Below are positions 10,092-50,087 of a DNA stretch of 50,596 nucleotides, piece by piece; position 1 is the stretch's first letter; every line of letters starts with the position of its first letter. The DNA is from Escherichia phage tunzivis. The stretch lies in the sequence record MN850604.1. One strand, 5' to 3'. The translations under genes were made by a program, and so were the position numbers. Under the pieces are notes generated by a model. It saw only the letters and a list, made by a program, of their open reading frames with translations, ran no database searches and was not told the DNA's origin.

Positions 10092-10107
10092 CACTTTTTG
10101 TTAAAAC
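10089..10107 (+). promoter_or_regulatory. conserved motif copy upstream of 10164..10349
   Basis: exact TAGCACTTTTTGTTAAAAC; hairpin GCCAGGTGCAAAGCCTGGC; CATAAT 10126..10131; leader CATCGAAACGAG. Confidence 0.6.
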
Positions 10108-10163
10108 GCCAGGTGCAAAGCCTGGCATAATAGCCTCATCGAAACGAGATTGAGGAAACAAAA

Positions 10164-10364: not shown

Positions 10365-10550
10365 ATGAAAACGAAATTAGTCCATAAGTCAGAAATCAAG
10401 ATCGGCGATACTGTGATTCACAACGGCGAGCTTAGAACGGTTGGCAAGGAGTCAATAAGCCACGATGAATTTATGGGGATCTTGTTGTTCGGTGACTCTT
10501 ATCGTCTTGGTTACAAGATGGTTGAGCTTGTGGAAGATGTCAAATTCTAA
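10365..10550 (+). CDS. hypothetical protein
   Basis: 61-aa ORF; RBS AGGTGA. Confidence 0.4.
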   Translation: MKTKLVHKSEIKIGDTVIHNGELRTVGKESISHDEFMGILLFGDSYRLGYKMVELVEDVKF

Positions 10551-10648: not shown

Positions 10649-11542
10649 ATGTTAAAACTTGCTGACATTAAATTCCCGATCACCTTCGAATCTCGCGGCA
10701 TTGGTCATTACATTTTTACCGATGAAAAAACATGCCATAAGGTTGATATGAATAGCGACAAACTAAGCCCATCAGACATGGAGATTGAACACTTTATTGA
10801 TGCGCACAATACGCAGTACAACGCACTTAAAGACTATGGCTATGCAATGCCAGGATATACCAGCTTCCACTACAAGCCATATAAAGGCCAGGTGTTGCCA
10901 GTGCGCTCACCGGAACGCGCAGAGATTCCGATGGTCGAGATGAAAACATGCGACTATAAAAAGCTGTGGTGCTTAAGTGTTGACAATATCAAGTATCCGA
11001 TCACGTTCTACACGGTTGGTAATTCAACGATTCGATTCACATCGCGCGACAATGGCGTTTATAGCGATGGTACGAAATCAGAGTTGAAAGTTGATTTCTT
11101 TGTCAACGGTCACAATAGATACAATCCGCACAACGAAGAGGATAAAGTGTACTACGTGGAAGACATTACAAAACACTTGTTTGGAGAAACTCCATTCGGC
11201 GGCGGTAAGACGTCAATTCAAAAAATCATTGGCGATGAGATCCACAAAGCGGCTGCCGAAATGAAAGCGCCTGGAGGCTGGCGTATTGACAAGAGCGCAT
11301 TTGCAAATCAAGAAATAGTAACGCAGGGAGCAATTGAAGATATGCCAGTTGCAGCCACTCTAAAAGGAGTCCGGCTTGATGACGGCACCTGGTATGAAGT
11401 AACGGCTACACCAAAGACGATCGAGATTCATGATGACGTTGTTATCCTTCTGCTTCACTACGGCGGCTATAAAAACCGGACGATTGCAGGTGAGATCAGC
11501 ATCAAGCGCGGAACGATGGTTAAGTGGAAGGTGAAGATTTGA
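10649..11542 (+). CDS. hypothetical protein
   Basis: ORF 10604..11542; ATG at 10649 preceded by AGGAG preferred over 10604 (which would be leaderless). Confidence 0.45.
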   Translation: MLKLADIKFPITFESRGIGHYIFTDEKTCHKVDMNSDKLSPSDMEIEHFIDAHNTQYNALKDYGYAMPGYTSFHYKPYKGQVLPVRSPERAEIPMVEMKTCDYKKLWCLSVDNIKYPITFYTVGNSTIRFTSRDNGVYSDGTKSELKVDFFVNGHNRYNPHNEEDKVYYVEDITKHLFGETPFGGGKTSIQKIIGDEIHKAAAEMKAPGGWRIDKSAFANQEIVTQGAIEDMPVAATLKGVRLDDGTWYEVTATPKTIEIHDDVVILLLHYGGYKNRTIAGEISIKRGTMVKWKVKI

Positions 11543-11618
11543 GTTTGTTCACTGCGGCGCACGTCGCCGCATGGATCGGATTGTTTGCCTACCTGTTTAG
11601 CTTTTATTGAGGTGAGAG

Positions 11619-11771
11619 ATGGCTACCTGGATTTTACTGATTCTTATGATTGATGGCGGCGTTGACCATATCGAAATGAATAGCCAGCAATCTTGCATTG
11701 AGGCACGAGAGCAGATCAAGAACAACAACGGGTTTTATGCGTACACTCACACGCTATGTATTAAGAAATAG
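11619..11771 (+). CDS. small hydrophobic protein, paralog of 12777..12938 (<60 aa, not in track)
   Basis: Manual read MATWILLILMIDGG...CIEAREQIKNNNGFYAYTHTLCIKK; RBS GAGGTGAGAG; stop TAG is the first triplet of the motif at 11769. Confidence 0.4.
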   Translation: MATWILLILMIDGGVDHIEMNSQQSCIEAREQIKNNNGFYAYTHTLCIKK

Positions 11772-11787
11772 CACTTTTTGTTAAAAC
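11769..11787 (+). promoter_or_regulatory. conserved motif copy upstream of 11841..12062
   Basis: exact 19-mer; TATAAT 11805..11810 embedded in GGCCA..TGGCC hairpin. Confidence 0.55.
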
Positions 11788-11840
11788 TCAAATGTGGGGC
11801 CAAGTATAATGGCCTCACTTTCAACGAAGGAGATAAAACG

Positions 11841-12062
11841 ATGTACATTAAAAAGAAGATGAAATGCATTTCCGTTAACTATGCTTGCTCTGGCATGTTC
11901 AAGCCTGGCGAAATCTATACGGCGCAAAAACTGAAATCATCAACCGGATCTTTTTACGTGAGCAATAATAAGGGGCATCGCATGTTCCTGAACGGCGGCG
12001 AAGGCACTAAGGTTATGGCGCACGCTATGGTAATTGCTGAATTTGAGGAAGTGAAAGAATGA
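11841..12062 (+). CDS. hypothetical protein
   Basis: ORF 11778..12062; ATG at 11841 preceded by AAGGAGA. Confidence 0.4.
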   Translation: MYIKKKMKCISVNYACSGMFKPGEIYTAQKLKSSTGSFYVSNNKGHRMFLNGGEGTKVMAHAMVIAEFEEVKE

Positions 12063-12244
12063 TTATCTACGTTGTGCATGGTGATATTTACTACGACGGA
12101 GAATACTTTGAGGGAGCCTTCAGCGAATTTGATAAGGCAGAACAGCACGCTGAGACGCTTCCGGATTGTTACGACGAAGTAACAATACGCGAGATAAAAC
12201 TTGATGATCCAACATATGATGGCGACAAATGGAGCGTAAAATGA
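12059..12244 (+). CDS. hypothetical protein
   Basis: 61-aa ORF overlapping neighbours by 4 nt each side. Confidence 0.4.
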   Translation: MIIYVVHGDIYYDGEYFEGAFSEFDKAEQHAETLPDCYDEVTIREIKLDDPTYDGDKWSVK

Positions 12245-12780
12245 AAAAATACACTTTCGAACTGTGGGGCAAGAAGTACGAATTAATCACCAGCAAGCCG
12301 ATTGTTATCGTTGACCTGGACGGCACACTATCGGACGGATCGCATCGTCTGCACTTGCTGCCAACTGAAAACTTGCACCTTGCCGAATCGTGGAGCGAAT
12401 TTAACAGGGCCGCCGACGGAGATTCACCGATTAAGAGCACGATCGCGGTTATTAACGGTTTGTGGGTGTCAGGATTTGCCATCGTCATCTTGACCGGACG
12501 TAGCGACGAGGTTCGCTATAAAACCTGCAAATGGTTGAATGAGAACGGTGTGAAGTTTGACGAAATCATCATGCGCCGCCAGGAGGACAACCGAAAGGAT
12601 ACGGTTATTAAAGAAGAAGCCTTGCGCGCCATTGGCCTGGACAGCATTGTTTGCGCCTTTGACGATTCGCCGAACGTTGTTAAGCACTTCCGCAGCCTGG
12701 GAATCACAACCTATCAGGTCACGGAATACGACAAGCCGCACGCTCACCTGCAATCTCACGGCGTGGAGTGTTTAAAATGA
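12241..12780 (+). CDS. HAD-superfamily phosphatase (polynucleotide 3-prime-phosphatase / nucleotidase-like)
   Basis: ORF 12229..12780; HAD motif I VIVDLDGTLSD near N-terminus; ATGA overlap with upstream gene. Confidence 0.55.
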   Translation: MKKYTFELWGKKYELITSKPIVIVDLDGTLSDGSHRLHLLPTENLHLAESWSEFNRAADGDSPIKSTIAVINGLWVSGFAIVILTGRSDEVRYKTCKWLNENGVKFDEIIMRRQEDNRKDTVIKEEALRAIGLDSIVCAFDDSPNVVKHFRSLGITTYQVTEYDKPHAHLQSHGVECLK

Positions 12781-12938
12781 CTTGGTTGCTTTTAATCTTT
12801 GTCACAAGTTACAACTCCGCAGCTATTGAGTCGCAGGAGTTCCACGGCGAATCAAGATGCCAGGAAGCGCGAAAGCAAGTTATTCTCCACATGTCAGATA
12901 GTGGGAAGGATGTAACAGCGTTATGCGTTCGTAAATAG
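12777..12938 (+). CDS. small hydrophobic protein, paralog of 11619..11771 (<60 aa, not in track)
   Basis: Manual read MTWLLLIFVTSYNSAAIESQEFHGESRCQEARKQVILHMSDSGKDVTALCVRK; ATGA overlap with phosphatase stop; stop TAG is the first triplet of the motif at 12936. Confidence 0.4.
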   Translation: MTWLLLIFVTSYNSAAIESQEFHGESRCQEARKQVILHMSDSGKDVTALCVRK

Positions 12939-12955
12939 CACTTTTTGCAAAAAAC
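12936..12955 (+). promoter_or_regulatory. conserved motif copy (variant TAGCACTTTTTGCAAAAAAC) upstream of 13011..13274
   Basis: 18-nt spacer then TATAGT 12974..12979 inside GGGCTT..AAGCCC hairpin. Confidence 0.5.
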
Positions 12956-13010
12956 AGATCATTGGGCTTGCTGTATAGTAAGCCCATCAACAACAAACGA
13001 GGATTAAATC

Positions 13011-15570: not shown

Positions 15571-15589
15571 TAGCACTTTTTGTTAAAAC
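15571..15589 (+). promoter_or_regulatory. conserved motif copy upstream of 15646..15858
   Basis: exact 19-mer; hairpin AAGGGCA..TGCCCTT; TAAAGT at +37. Confidence 0.5.
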
Positions 15590-15645
15590 TTCCGCAAGGG
15601 CATTTGGTAAAGTGCCCTTATTGAAGCGAAACAGAGGAAAGCGCA

Positions 15646-18223: not shown

Positions 18224-19791
18224 TGATCATATGGGAAGATTTGACGGCGGCGCAAAAGCGAGCCATTAAAGAAATCAGTGAGCATTCATTCGAAAAGATG
18301 ATCAGAATCTGGTTTCAGTTATTGCAGGGGCAAAAATTCCAGAGCAACTGGCATTTTAGCTTATTGTGCAGTGAGGTAGAGAAGATCATCAATGGAGAGT
18401 CGCAGAATGTGATTTTCAACATTACGCCAGGTAGCGGTAAGACTGAGATTTTCTCGATCCACATGTCACCCTACGCGTCATTGAAAAGTCGGAAGGTGAG
18501 AAACCTTAACCTTTCGTTTAGTGATGGACTTGTCCAGCAAAACAGCAACAGGATAAAGGAGATTATCGGTTCTCCTGAGTGGCAAGAGCTATGGCCAGGA
18601 AAACTGGCAAAGGCGAGCGCAAAAGATCTCATAGTTACGGATGGCGGCAAGGTTAAATTGCAAGTTAACTCACGTTCTATTGGCGGACAGGTAACAGGTT
18701 TGCGTGGCGGCTATATGGATGATGGTTTTACTGGTATGCTGGTTCTGGACGATCCAGACAAGCCTGATGATATGCTTTCTAAGGTCAAGCGTGAGGCGAT
18801 CCACATGAGGTTAAAAAACACAGTGCGTTCTCGTCGAATGAAAGACACCACGCCAATTGTTATGGTGCAACAGCGACTACACGTTAATGATTCCACCTGG
18901 TTCATGCTTAATGGCGGGATGGGCGGTATTGAGTTTAAAGTTGTGAGCATTCCTGCGCTGGTTACGAAAGAATACCGCGAAACGCTTCCTGATTGGTTGA
19001 AGCCTGAATTTGATCGTGATGTGTTGTCAAGTAAGCCAGTGATGATAGATGGAGTTGCTCATTATTCATTTTGGCCTGCAAAGGAAAGCGCGGAGGAATT
19101 GCTTGCATTGCGCAATGCAGATCCTTACACGTTCGCCAGCCAATACCAACAACAACCCATCGCGCTTGGCGGCAACGTGTTTAAAACAGAGTGGTTCCAG
19201 TATTACGGCAGCGGCGAAAAATGCGCACTTCCTAAACCGGATCGCTTTGAATACACATTTATTACTGGAGATACAGCACAGAAGGCCGGAGAGCTTAACG
19301 ACTATTCAGTTTTTTGTTATTGGGGGATGTATAAAAATCGCGTTTACTTCATTGATGGCATTCGCGGCAAGTGGGAAGCGCCAGATCTTGAATTAAATTT
19401 TATTGCCTTCGTTAATCAGTGCTGGAAGCGCAATAAGGAGTGTGGCAGCTTGCGACGTATTCACATTGAGGATAAGGCCAGCGGCACGGGTTTGATTCAG
19501 GGGGCCAAAAAGAAGATCCCGATTGATATAAATCCCGTTCAGCGAAGCAATGACAAGGTAACGCGAGCAATGGACGCCGCGCCAGTAATGAGGGCAGGAC
19601 GTGTGGCACTGCCAGAAAGTCATCCCATGTTACCTGAGATACTGGCAGAGGTTGCAGCGTTCACTTTTGACGATTCTCATCCCCATGATGATATTGTCGA
19701 TAATATAGTTGATGCTGTTAACGTCGAAATGAACTTGGCAGATGATCCGGTAGCAAGGATGAAAAAGCTGGCTGGTCTACGCAATAAATAG
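18223..19791 (+). CDS. terminase large subunit
   Basis: 522 aa; P-loop-like TPGSGKTE in N-terminal ATPase half, acidic residues in C-terminal nuclease half; position TerS-TerL-portal. Confidence 0.8.
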   Translation: MIIWEDLTAAQKRAIKEISEHSFEKMIRIWFQLLQGQKFQSNWHFSLLCSEVEKIINGESQNVIFNITPGSGKTEIFSIHMSPYASLKSRKVRNLNLSFSDGLVQQNSNRIKEIIGSPEWQELWPGKLAKASAKDLIVTDGGKVKLQVNSRSIGGQVTGLRGGYMDDGFTGMLVLDDPDKPDDMLSKVKREAIHMRLKNTVRSRRMKDTTPIVMVQQRLHVNDSTWFMLNGGMGGIEFKVVSIPALVTKEYRETLPDWLKPEFDRDVLSSKPVMIDGVAHYSFWPAKESAEELLALRNADPYTFASQYQQQPIALGGNVFKTEWFQYYGSGEKCALPKPDRFEYTFITGDTAQKAGELNDYSVFCYWGMYKNRVYFIDGIRGKWEAPDLELNFIAFVNQCWKRNKECGSLRRIHIEDKASGTGLIQGAKKKIPIDINPVQRSNDKVTRAMDAAPVMRAGRVALPESHPMLPEILAEVAAFTFDDSHPHDDIVDNIVDAVNVEMNLADDPVARMKKLAGLRNK

Positions 19792-19808
19792 CACTAATTG
19801 CTAAAAAG
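19789..19808 (+). promoter_or_regulatory. conserved motif copy (variant TAGCACTAATTGCTAAAAAG) with adjacent TATAAT, between terminase and portal
   Basis: variant motif followed 4 nt later by TATAAT (19812..19817) and then a terminator hairpin; atypical spacing. Confidence 0.4.
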
Positions 19809-19818
19809 TTATATAATC

Positions 19819-19846
19819 AAGGCTGGATTTTTCCAGCCTTTTTTAT
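19819..19846 (+). terminator. rho-independent terminator after terminase
   Basis: AAGGCTGGA-ttttt-CCAGCCTT then TTTTTATT. Confidence 0.65.
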
Positions 19847-19861
19847 TATGGAGATTTGACG

Positions 19862-48950: not shown

Positions 48951-48966
48951 CACTTTTTGTTAAAAC
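48948..48966 (+). promoter_or_regulatory. conserved motif copy upstream of dam
   Basis: exact 19-mer; hairpin TGGCGCgatggattGCGCCA; CATAAT 48985..48990. Confidence 0.55.
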
Positions 48967-49024
48967 TGGCGCGATGGATTGCGCCATAATTCAATAACAC
49001 GAGATGGCTTTTAATAGCGGAGAA

Positions 49025-50018: not shown

Positions 50019-50037
50019 TAGCACTTTTTGTTAAAAC
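50019..50037 (+). promoter_or_regulatory. conserved motif copy upstream of 50088..50273
   Basis: exact 19-mer; hairpin GCCCGGCATTTTGTCGGGC; CATAAT 50056..50061; leader CATCGAAACGAACG. Confidence 0.6.
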
Positions 50038-50087
50038 GCCCGGCATTTTGTCGGGCATAATTATTTCATCGAAACGAACGTGAGGAA

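What the first reader, a model, noticed from the sequence alone, without database searches (positions are those of the whole stretch)
11619..12938. Two paralogous small hydrophobic proteins below the ORF-track threshold, each ending exactly at a promoter motif
Manual translation reveals 50- and 53-codon ORFs (11619..11771 and 12777..12938) that the 60-aa track missed. They share an N-terminal hydrophobic segment (M-(A)TW-LL-I...) and a C-terminal CxEAR-Q...C(I/V)(K/R)K tail; each terminates with the TAG that begins the next promoter motif. Duplicated small membrane peptides in early regions are often host-takeover or lysis-timing factors.
Basis: seen in the sequence. Interest (0 to 1): 0.4.

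Follow-up and report, generated by a model that had tools for sequence, protein, structure and literature searches.

The report
Two paralogous small phage proteins
The two short reading frames are real, related genes of a T1-like coliphage, already annotated as hypothetical proteins in its relatives; they belong to a large uncharacterised phage family that is predicted to form a tiny soluble domain, not a membrane peptide.

Summary
The window is a complete T1-like phage genome (Drexlerviridae, Warwickvirus, about 97% identical to phages ityhuna and JK16). Both ORFs exist exactly as described: 11619..11771 (50 aa) and 12777..12938 (53 aa). Each has a Shine-Dalgarno site, and each uses as its stop the TAG inside a copy of AATAGCACTTTTTG. 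They are true homologues. Both match PHROG 5579 (unknown function) over their full length. A profile built only from 40 other family members picks out exactly these two of the window's 1123 ORFs. The family is large, with 1995 clusters at 50% identity. Members are 48-84 aa (median 55), and I found them only in phages of Gram-negative hosts. The family has no Pfam, NCBIfam or PDB relative. AlphaFold2 with an alignment gives a confident β-β-α-β mini-domain (pLDDT 90), in which the hydrophobic N-terminus is a strand rather than a transmembrane helix. The hydrophobic run is only 7-8 residues and has no N-terminal positive charge. Two cysteines are near-invariant. Ending at the promoter motif is not special to these ORFs: 12 of 18 motif copies abut or contain the upstream stop codon. 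Function is unknown. My best guess is a cytoplasmic, probably dimeric, early-expressed protein binder. Identical proteins are already in GenBank as hypothetical proteins, so interest is modest.

The parts
11619..11771 (+). ORF1, 50 aa (MATWILLILMIDGGVDHIEMNSQQSCIEAREQIKNNNGFYAYTHTLCIKK). It is a phrog_5579 family member and an orthologue of phage T1 ORF69. It is the last gene of the transcription unit that starts at the motif at 10550.
   Evidence: It is 100% identical to annotated proteins of phages Tuinin and tunzivis.
11609..11615 (+). Shine-Dalgarno site GAGGTGA for ORF1, 3 nt before the ATG.
   Evidence: Read from the sequence.
12777..12938 (+). ORF2, 53 aa (MTWLLLIFVTSYNSAAIESQEFHGESRCQEARKQVILHMSDSGKDVTALCVRK). 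It is a second, divergent phrog_5579 member, 31% identical to ORF1. Its ATG overlaps the TGA of the upstream HAD-phosphatase/'polynucleotide kinase' gene (ATGA at 12777-12780).
   Evidence: It is identical to a protein seen on 88 contigs and annotated in six Warwickvirus phages.
12765..12768 (+). GGAG Shine-Dalgarno-like site for ORF2, 8 nt before the ATG.
   Evidence: Read from the sequence.
11767..11810 (+). Promoter-like unit downstream of ORF1. It consists of AATAGCACTTTTTG (11767-11780), TTAAAA, and TATAAT at 11805-11810. The motif's TAG (11769-11771) is ORF1's stop. A hairpin, GTGGGGCC...GGCCTCAC (11794-11818), encloses the -10 hexamer.
12934..12986 (+). Promoter-like unit downstream of ORF2. 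It consists of AATAGCACTTTTTG (12934-12947) and TATAGT at 12974-12979. The motif's TAG (12936-12938) is ORF2's stop. A hairpin, TGGGCTT...AAGCCCA (12963-12986), encloses the -10 hexamer.

Best explanation
Shown:
- ORF1 and ORF2 are genuine protein-coding genes. They are two divergent members (31% identity) of one large family of phage proteins of about 50-60 aa, PHROG 5579, whose function is unknown.
- The family signature is M-x-[WY]-[IV]-L-I ... [VI]-T-[TS]-x-E-F-x-S-x3-C-x2-A ... C-V-x-K.
- Each ORF is the last cistron of an early-type transcription unit. ORF2 overlaps the stop codon of the upstream phosphatase gene.

Predicted:
- The protein folds as a compact β-β-α-β mini-domain. The very hydrophobic N-terminus forms the first strand, which I infer to be the central one, and it packs against the single helix.

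Inferred:
- The protein stays in the cytoplasm with its N-terminus intact.
- The second, fully hydrophobic face of the three-stranded sheet is buried by homo-dimerisation, by pairing of the two paralogues, or by binding to a target.
- The two near-invariant cysteines (helix start and last strand) lie next to each other. They either tie helix to sheet or form a shared metal site in a dimer.
- The protein acts early in infection as a small stoichiometric binder of a host or phage macromolecule, that is, as an accessory host-takeover or counter-defence factor. It is neither an enzyme nor a membrane or lysis protein.
- The two copies are old paralogues brought together by recombination, not a recent duplication. 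Phage T1 has only the ORF1 type, Tls and PMBT35 were seen with only the ORF2-like type, and phage egaa lacks ORF1.
For: Homology and coding:
- PHROG matches.
- Independent-profile test.
- 1995 cluster representatives at E<=1e-3; the 150 best listed are 48-84 aa and nearly all match from at or near their first residue.
- ORF2 dN/dS is 0.02 against pSf-1 (12 synonymous changes, 1 non-synonymous) and 0.12 against egaa.
- Both ORFs are annotated in relatives.

Fold:
- AF2 with the alignment gives mean pLDDT 90 and pTM 0.69, with strands 4-10, 15-20 and 43-49 and a helix at 23-35.
- BFVD models of family members superpose on it at TM 0.8-0.88.

N-terminus is part of the fold, not a signal peptide or membrane anchor:
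- It is conserved position by position: W/Y3, L5 in 190/191, I6.
- 184 of 191 members have no K/R before the hydrophobic run. The run is 4-11 residues, mostly 5-8. ORF1 and ORF2 have KD19 values of 1.22 and 1.05.
- Column 8 (N-terminal strand) covaries with column 35 (helix): T at 8 goes with W/Y/F at 35. G32 goes with F47. E21 covaries with K52.
- The ORF1/T1 clade has D, K or P at the would-be -3/-1 signal-peptidase positions.

Cysteines:
- C28 is present in 190/191 and C49 in 188/188. 184 of 191 members have exactly two Cys.

Accessory, autonomous character:
- No partner gene is conserved across contexts: after phrog_7116, after PNK, between nrdA and nrdB in Krischvirus, after a T7-like kinase region in an Acinetobacter phage, and after ThyX or a PD-(D/E)XK nuclease in metagenomic contigs.
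- ORF1 is absent from phage egaa.
- A single hypervariable codon (38: R/G/W/S/M) sits in an otherwise nearly invariant ORF1.
Against: - No functional evidence of any kind exists for this family. Nothing was found in the literature.
- The fold rests on one AF2 model. I could not read its coordinates, so the Cys-Cys distance and the strand order are inferred from topology and covariation.
- A single-sequence AF2 run on ORF2 gave a low-confidence model (pLDDT 59) with an N-terminal helix.
- Small residues dominate the alignment columns that would be -3 and -1 of a signal-peptidase site (G/S/A in 145/191 and A/T/G/S in 177/191).
- UniRef auto-names one ORF2 orthologue 'Secreted protein'.
- A conserved Cys pair is more typical of exported, disulfide-bonded proteins than of cytoplasmic ones.
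- All identified hosts are Gram-negative, which is compatible with a periplasmic role.
- The covariation counts are not corrected for phylogeny.
- Dimerisation was not modelled.
Confidence: 0.5

Rival explanations
1. Exported periplasmic peptide. Residues 1 to about 16 would be a short, uncharged Sec signal peptide that is cleaved before the conserved [VI]-T-T-x-E-F. This would release a peptide of about 34-37 aa (strand-helix-strand) stabilised by a DsbA-made C-C disulfide. It would act in the periplasm or at the envelope, for example in superinfection exclusion or interference with an envelope protein.
For: - The N-terminus is hydrophobic.
- Small residues sit at the would-be -3/-1 columns in most members. 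ORF2 has S-A-A before IESQEF.
- Two near-invariant cysteines.
- UniRef's automatic name for an ORF2 orthologue is 'Secreted protein'.
- Only Gram-negative hosts were identified.
- Single-sequence AF2 of ORF2 makes residues 2-19 a helix (low confidence).
Against: - 184 of 191 members have no K/R in the n-region, and 11 have D/E there.
- The strictly hydrophobic run is mostly 5-8 residues. In some members the whole pre-site segment is only about 13 residues (e.g. MIYVLILVISGHS).
- ORF1 has D at -3, and T1 ORF69 has K at -3 and P at -1, which signal peptidase I does not accept (the rule is from established knowledge).
- Invariance of L5 and near-invariance of W/Y3 and I6 is not how signal peptides evolve.
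- AF2 with the alignment places the segment confidently in the sheet.
- Column 8 covaries with helix column 35.
Confidence: 0.2
2. Small membrane-inserted peptides. The N-terminal segment would be a transmembrane or signal-anchor helix, and the proteins would act in the inner membrane as host-takeover or lysis-timing factors, like a holin, antiholin or SAR protein.
For: - The N-terminus is hydrophobic.
- 25 of 191 family members reach KD19 > 1.6.
- The low-confidence single-sequence model has an N-terminal helix.
Against: - KD19 is 1.22 for ORF1 and 1.05 for ORF2. The hydrophobic runs of 8 and 7 residues are followed by D/G/N/S, too short to span a bilayer.
- The β-strand prediction and covariation argue against a helix.
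- The genes lie in early/nucleotide-metabolism regions in the contexts examined, and no lysis gene was recognised next to them.
Confidence: 0.06
3. The resemblance, or the ORFs themselves, are by-products of the repeated DNA motif or of chance. On this view the shared C-terminal K-stop and C(I/V)(K/R)K reflect promoter-motif sequence, not protein homology.
For: - The last Lys codon and the TAG overlap the conserved AATAG of the motif.
- Other, unrelated ORFs also end K-TAG in the motif.
Against: - Homology extends over the full length and was detected with independent profiles.
- The C-V-x-K end is conserved in Aeromonas, Acinetobacter and Burkholderia phage members that end in TAA and lack the motif.
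- K52 is present in 166 of 175 members, and C49 is invariant.
- There is purifying selection.
Confidence: 0.01

Closest known systems
PHROG family phrog_5579 (unknown function). It includes phage T1 ORF69 (AAP49931), Tls gp83, RB49/Phi1 ORF231 and ORF232, and BcepF1.030.
   Same: - Full-length profile matches for both ORFs and for all 11 diverse members tested.
- Same length and same signature residues.
- Same predicted fold in BFVD.
   Different: Nothing differs; these are ordinary members. The only local peculiarity is that this phage lineage carries two divergent copies in separate transcription units. pVOG splits them into VOG8694 and VOG6395.
Small exported phage proteins with cleavable or releasable N-terminal signals (e.g. 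T4 Spackle, T4 RI antiholin). Comparison from general knowledge.
   Same: Small size, hydrophobic N-terminus, conserved cysteines, Gram-negative hosts.
   Different: - There is no positively charged n-region.
- The hydrophobic core is much shorter.
- The N-terminal segment is conserved position by position.
- The segment is predicted to be a β-strand of the fold.
- There is no sequence similarity to any solved structure.
[not shown]
   Same: Same secondary-structure order and packing of one helix on a three-stranded sheet. Several of these act as dimers or as small protein binders.
   Different: - Foldseek against the PDB finds nothing at E<1.
- No homology is implied.
Lipoprotein superinfection-exclusion factors of T1/T5-like phages (Cor, Llp). 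Comparison from general knowledge.
   Same: Small accessory proteins of related siphophages with a hydrophobic N-terminus.
   Different: There is no lipobox. The first Cys is at residue 26 (ORF1) or 28 (ORF2), inside a polar S-x3-C helix start, not after an L-x-x motif.

Membership tests
PHROG phrog_5579 (small phage proteins, unknown function) | Significant full-length match to the family profile | tested here: met
   - ORF1: E=1.1e-21, residues 1-50 against profile positions 1-52 of 52.
- ORF2: E=3.5e-9, residues 1-53 against profile positions 2-52 of 52.
- All 11 diverse relatives tested also match.
PHROG phrog_5579 (small phage proteins, unknown function) | Family signature residues as derived here from 191 members: L5, E21, F22, S24, C28, A31, C49, V/I50, K52 | tested here: met
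   ORF2 has all of them except G in place of S24. ORF1 has all except M in place of F22, a variant also seen in 6 of 191 members including T1 ORF69.
Sec-type cleavable signal peptide (secreted or periplasmic protein) | Positively charged n-region | tested here: not met
   ORF1 begins MAT and ORF2 begins MT, with no K/R. 184 of 191 family members have none.
Sec-type cleavable signal peptide (secreted or periplasmic protein) | Hydrophobic h-region of about 10-15 residues | tested here: not met
   The uninterrupted hydrophobic run is 8 residues in ORF1 and 7 in ORF2. The family mode is 5-8.
Sec-type cleavable signal peptide (secreted or periplasmic protein) | Small neutral residues at -3 and -1 of a cleavage site | tested here: inconclusive
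   - ORF2 fits (S-A-A | IESQEF).
- ORF1 has D at -3 (D-G-G | VDH), and T1 ORF69 has K at -3 and P at -1.
- Family-wide, these columns are mostly G/S/A and A/T/G/S.
- No signal-peptide predictor was available.
Single-pass membrane peptides (holin, antiholin, SAR-type or other transmembrane micro-proteins) | Hydrophobic segment long enough to span the bilayer (about 18-20 residues; KD19 > 1.6) | tested here: not met
   The best 19-residue Kyte-Doolittle mean is 1.22 for ORF1 and 1.05 for ORF2. The family median is 1.21. AF2 predicts a strand there.
Bacterial/phage lipoproteins (Cor or Llp type) | Lipobox (L-[AS]-[GA]-C) at the end of an N-terminal signal | tested here: not met
   There is no Cys in the first 25 residues of either ORF.
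Sigma-70 promoter (for the AATAGCACTTTTTG...TATAAT unit that supplies the stop codons) | -10 hexamer, plus a -35 hexamer at 17±1 bp, oriented towards a downstream gene | tested here: inconclusive
   - TATAAT-like hexamers lie a fixed 24-26 nt after the motif at most of the 18 copies.
- The copies with a recognisable downstream gene point towards it.
- The only -35-like hexamer is TTAAAA at an 18-20 nt spacing. The consensus scan reported just one of them.
- Transcription start sites cannot be tested with these tools.

The most novel reading that the evidence does not exclude
PHROG 5579 could be an unrecognised major class of phage mini-effector. It would be a dimeric β-β-α-β protein of about 50 aa with a Cys pair, possibly binding a metal at the dimer interface. 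It would be carried, often in two copies, by T1-like, RB49-like and many other Gram-negative phages, and it would neutralise a host factor or defence system, or be sensed by one. The single hypervariable surface codon of ORF1 (residue 38: R/G/W/S/M) would mark the contact or escape site. The family has about 2000 clusters at 50% identity, no Pfam entry and no solved structure.
Probability: 0.2. Interest if true: 0.55.

Novelty: already known. Interest (0 to 1): 0.28.

Why it matters
For this window, little changes. Both genes are already annotated as hypothetical proteins in dozens of Drexlerviridae genomes and are grouped in a PHROG.

The useful results are these:
- The 'membrane peptide' reading is corrected.
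- The stop-in-promoter arrangement is shown to be generic for this genome.
- The two genes are shown to belong to one very large, structurally confident but wholly uncharacterised family of phage mini-proteins that lacks a Pfam model.

Families like this one (small, early, accessory, duplicated, with a local hot-spot of variation) are where anti-defence and host-takeover factors are usually found. It is therefore a reasonable, but not urgent, candidate for functional screening.

Tried and rejected
- **Pfam and NCBIfam:** scans of both ORFs and of 11 diverse members gave no credible family.
- **PDB by sequence:** the family profile found nothing.
- **Second AF2 job:** The model was uninformative at pLDDT 59.
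- **Third paralogue:** an HMM search of all 1123 window ORFs found none.
- **Rfam:** a scan of the whole window gave no match.
- **Literature:** searches for the motif sequence, accession numbers, the PHROG id, and T1-like promoters or small early proteins found nothing relevant.
- **Context mining by the search for related loci:** the alignment was too variable for pattern scans. Narrower patterns gave only 1 bacterial locus and 3 and 7 viral loci. I could therefore establish neither a conserved-neighbour analysis nor a host range beyond the curated phage records.
- **Idea that the C-terminal similarity comes from the DNA motif:** rejected.
- **Lipoprotein (Cor/Llp-like) idea:** rejected because there is no lipobox.
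Full report
**What the window is.** A megablast of 11300-13300 hits 130 phage records. The best are Escherichia phage ityhuna and Shigella phage JK16 (Drexlerviridae, Tempevirinae, Warwickvirus) at about 97% identity, both with genomes of about 51 kb. The 50,596-base window is therefore essentially a complete T1-like phage genome. The finding lies in its early-type region of many small + strand genes.

**Checking the observation.**
- ORF1 runs 11619..11771 (50 aa). It is preceded by GAGGTGA at 11609-11615.
- ORF2 runs 12777..12938 (53 aa). It is preceded by GGAG at 12765-12768, and its ATG overlaps the TGA of the upstream HAD-phosphatase/'polynucleotide kinase' gene.
- Both stop codons are the TAG inside exact copies of AATAGCACTTTTTG.
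- Both ORFs are annotated as hypothetical proteins in relatives: ityhuna_5 and ityhuna_10, JK16 gp34 and gp39.
- Sequences identical to both are in GenBank.
- The coordinates and the description are correct.

**Is the similarity real?**
- Pairwise BLASTP gives E=3e-6 over the N-terminal 34 residues.
- Both proteins match PHROG phrog_5579 over their full length, at 1.1e-21 and 3.5e-9.
- To avoid circularity, I built a profile from 40 family members that excludes the ORF1 and ORF2 clades. I then searched all 1123 stop-to-stop ORFs of the window. Only these two were found, at E=2.4e-10 and 3.3e-14; the next best was 0.18. hhalign between the two clades gives 94% probability.
- There is no third copy in the window.
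- The shared C-terminal C-(I/V)-(K/R)-K is not a by-product of the DNA motif. Members from Aeromonas, Acinetobacter and Burkholderia phages end CVER, CVPK and CTKK followed by TAA, and have no such motif. Across 191 members, C49 is invariant and K52 is present in 166 of 175.

**Are the frames conserved?**
- tblastn finds ORF1-type genes in 151 phage records. These include phage T1 ORF69, which follows the homologue of the window's 312-aa gene. ORF2-type genes are found in 58 records.
- ORF2 against pSf-1 differs by 12 synonymous changes and 1 non-synonymous change (dN/dS 0.02). Against egaa the ratio is 0.12.
- ORF1 is too similar among close relatives for a ratio to mean much. It is saturated against T1.

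**The family.**
- A profile search of 1.84 billion cluster representatives gives 1995 proteins at E<=1e-3. The 150 best listed are 48-84 aa, and nearly all match from at or near their first residue.
- Named members come from several phage groups:
  - T1-like phages (T1, Tls, Stevie, PMBT35);
  - RB49/Phi1-type Straboviridae, where two copies sit in tandem between nrdA and nrdB;
  - Aeromonas phage avDM6, Acinetobacter phage Bhz21, Burkholderia phages BcepF1 and BcepIL02, several ~41-46 kb Salmonella phages, and Cronobacter phages.
- All identified hosts are Gram-negative.
- There is no Pfam, NCBIfam or PDB sequence match.
- The signature from 191 members is M-x-[WY]-[IV]-L-I-..., a variable G/N/S-rich turn, [VI]-T-[TS]-x-E-F-x-S-x3-C-x2-A, a variable loop, then C-V-x-K. 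Counts are L5 190/191, E21 177, F22 184, C28 190/191, A31 189/191 and C49 188/188. 184 of 191 members have exactly two cysteines.

**Structure.**
- AlphaFold2 with a 48-sequence alignment gives a confident model of ORF1 (mean pLDDT 90, pTM 0.69). It has strands at 4-10, 15-20 and 43-49 and a helix at 23-35, that is, β-β-α-β.
- BFVD models of other members superpose on it at TM 0.8-0.88.
- By my own slip, the second AF2 job was run on ORF2 without an alignment. It gave an uninformative model (pLDDT 59) with an N-terminal helix.

**Membrane peptide, secreted peptide or soluble domain?**

Against a transmembrane helix:
- The hydrophobic runs are 8 and 7 residues.
- KD19 is 1.22 and 1.05.

Against a Sec signal peptide:
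- 184 of 191 members lack any K/R at the N-terminus.
- The hydrophobic core is mostly 5-8 residues.
- ORF1 and T1 ORF69 carry D, K or P at the would-be -3/-1 positions.
- The segment is conserved position by position.

For the segment being part of the fold:
- The AF2 confidence is high in this segment.
- Column 8 of the N-terminal strand covaries with helix column 35: T at 8 goes with W/Y/F at 35.
- Helix columns 32 and 35 covary with strand column 47.
- E21 covaries with K52. These counts are not corrected for phylogeny.

In favour of export:
- Small residues dominate the -3/-1 columns.
- There is a conserved Cys pair.
- The hosts are Gram-negative.
- UniRef carries an automatic 'Secreted protein' name for one ORF2 orthologue.

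I rate the soluble domain at about 0.5 (taken together with the binder idea below), the exported peptide at about 0.2, and the membrane peptide at about 0.06.

**Likely mechanism (inferred).**
- In a β-β-α-β unit I expect the first strand to be central. Here both of its faces are hydrophobic, while only one face of the sheet is covered by the helix.
- The other face must therefore be buried. The likely ways are homo-dimerisation, pairing of the two paralogues, or binding to a target.
- The helix-to-strand covariation runs antiparallel. This places C28 (helix start) next to C49 (strand 3). That suits either a helix-to-sheet tie or a four-Cys site in a dimer.
- The genes sit in early/nucleotide-metabolism regions with no conserved neighbour.
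- They are dispensable in some relatives: egaa lacks ORF1, T1 lacks the ORF2 type, and Tls and PMBT35 were seen with only the ORF2-like type.
- ORF1 carries one hypervariable codon in an otherwise nearly invariant gene.
- This is the profile of an accessory early protein that works by stoichiometric binding, in host takeover or counter-defence. No experiment or paper bears on it.

**The promoter-motif part of the finding.**
- AATAGCACTTTTTG occurs 18 times with at most 2 mismatches, 13 of them exact. With up to 3 mismatches there are 24 matches, against 9.5 expected by chance.
- The motif is usually followed by (T/C)TAAAA. A TATAAT-like hexamer lies a fixed 24-26 nt downstream at most copies, and most copies are followed by an SD and a start codon.
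- In 8 copies the motif's TAG is the stop of the upstream ORF. In 4 more, a TAA abuts the motif.
- T1, Stevie and PMBT35 show the same arrangement for their family members.
- Ending in the motif is therefore how gene cassettes are packed in these phages. It is not a property of these two ORFs.
- The unit looks like a promoter with an UP-like A/T block and a poor -35. That is unproven.

**Verdict.** The genes are already known as annotated hypothetical proteins and as a PHROG family, with function unknown. Interest is modest. The main residual value is that the family is very large, confidently folded and entirely uncharacterised.

Noticed in passing
window 11539..11610 (+): There is an unannotated 23-codon hydrophobic ORF (TTG start after GGTGA; MSLFTAAHVAAWIGLFAYLFSFY*) between the 312-aa gene and ORF1. 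Its TGA overlaps ORF1's Shine-Dalgarno site. An ORF of the same length is present in more than 30 relatives at 78-96% aa identity. Phage egaa, which lacks ORF1, has a 52%-identical version (MSIYTLMHIAGWIGLFLYILMHY). Among close relatives I saw only non-synonymous (conservative) changes, so whether it is coding is unresolved.
   Followed up: partly
window 11730..11732 (ORF1 codon 38): Codon 38, in the loop after the helix, is hypervariable. It is AGG (R) in most relatives, GGG (G) here, TGG (W) in ityhuna and AGT (S) in JK16, and one metagenomic variant has Met there. The rest of the 153-nt gene differs by only 0-2 bases. This could be a site of diversifying selection.
   Followed up: partly
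window-wide, e.g. 10101..10126, 11794..11818, 12963..12986, 15582..15607, 48960..48979, 50031..50056: Most copies of the AATAGCACTTTTTG unit carry a stable hairpin (about -12 to -16 kcal/mol). It lies either in the spacer just before the -10 hexamer or around the hexamer. The stems differ in sequence between copies and between phages (T1, Stevie, PMBT35), but the hairpin is kept and there is no U-tract. The function is unknown. It might be RNA 3'-end protection or processing of read-through transcripts, or promoter architecture.
   Followed up: partly
window 11841..12062 (+); L003 3619..3993; L004 4705..4923: Three proteins weakly match the same PHROG, phrog_9122 (E 2e-5, 4e-5, 6e-3). They are the 73-aa gene just downstream of ORF1, T1 ORF68 (just downstream of T1 ORF69), and Krischvirus Phi1 ORF227 (near the tandem family copies). 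This may be a recurrent neighbour of the family.
   Followed up: partly
window 11619..12938 compared with L014 (Shigella phage pSf-1) and L015 (phage egaa): The region is mosaic. Against pSf-1, ORF1 has dS 0.04 but ORF2 has dS 0.48. Phage egaa lacks ORF1 altogether while keeping the flanking micro-ORF and the promoter unit.
   Followed up: partly
L010 839..982 (phage Tls gp83): The Tls family member ends ...ARAFVF*, where Stevie has ...ARAFCVLK*. This loses the invariant C-terminal Cys. It looks like a frameshift or a sequencing error just before the promoter motif.
   Followed up: no
window 19787..19850 (+): A variant motif copy (AATAGCACTAATTG) is followed by a TATAAT and then by a canonical intrinsic terminator (AAGGCTGGA-tttt-TCCAGCCTT + TTTTATTA). 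At this site the promoter-like unit and a terminator overlap.
   Followed up: no
window 12241..12780 (+): The gene that relatives annotate as 'polynucleotide kinase' is only 179 aa and shows a HAD-type DxDGT motif (VIVDLDGTLSDG). It may be only the 3'-phosphatase half. ORF2-type genes sit directly behind it, with overlapping stop and start codons, in Warwickvirus, Hanrivervirus and Salmonella phage PMBT35.
   Followed up: no
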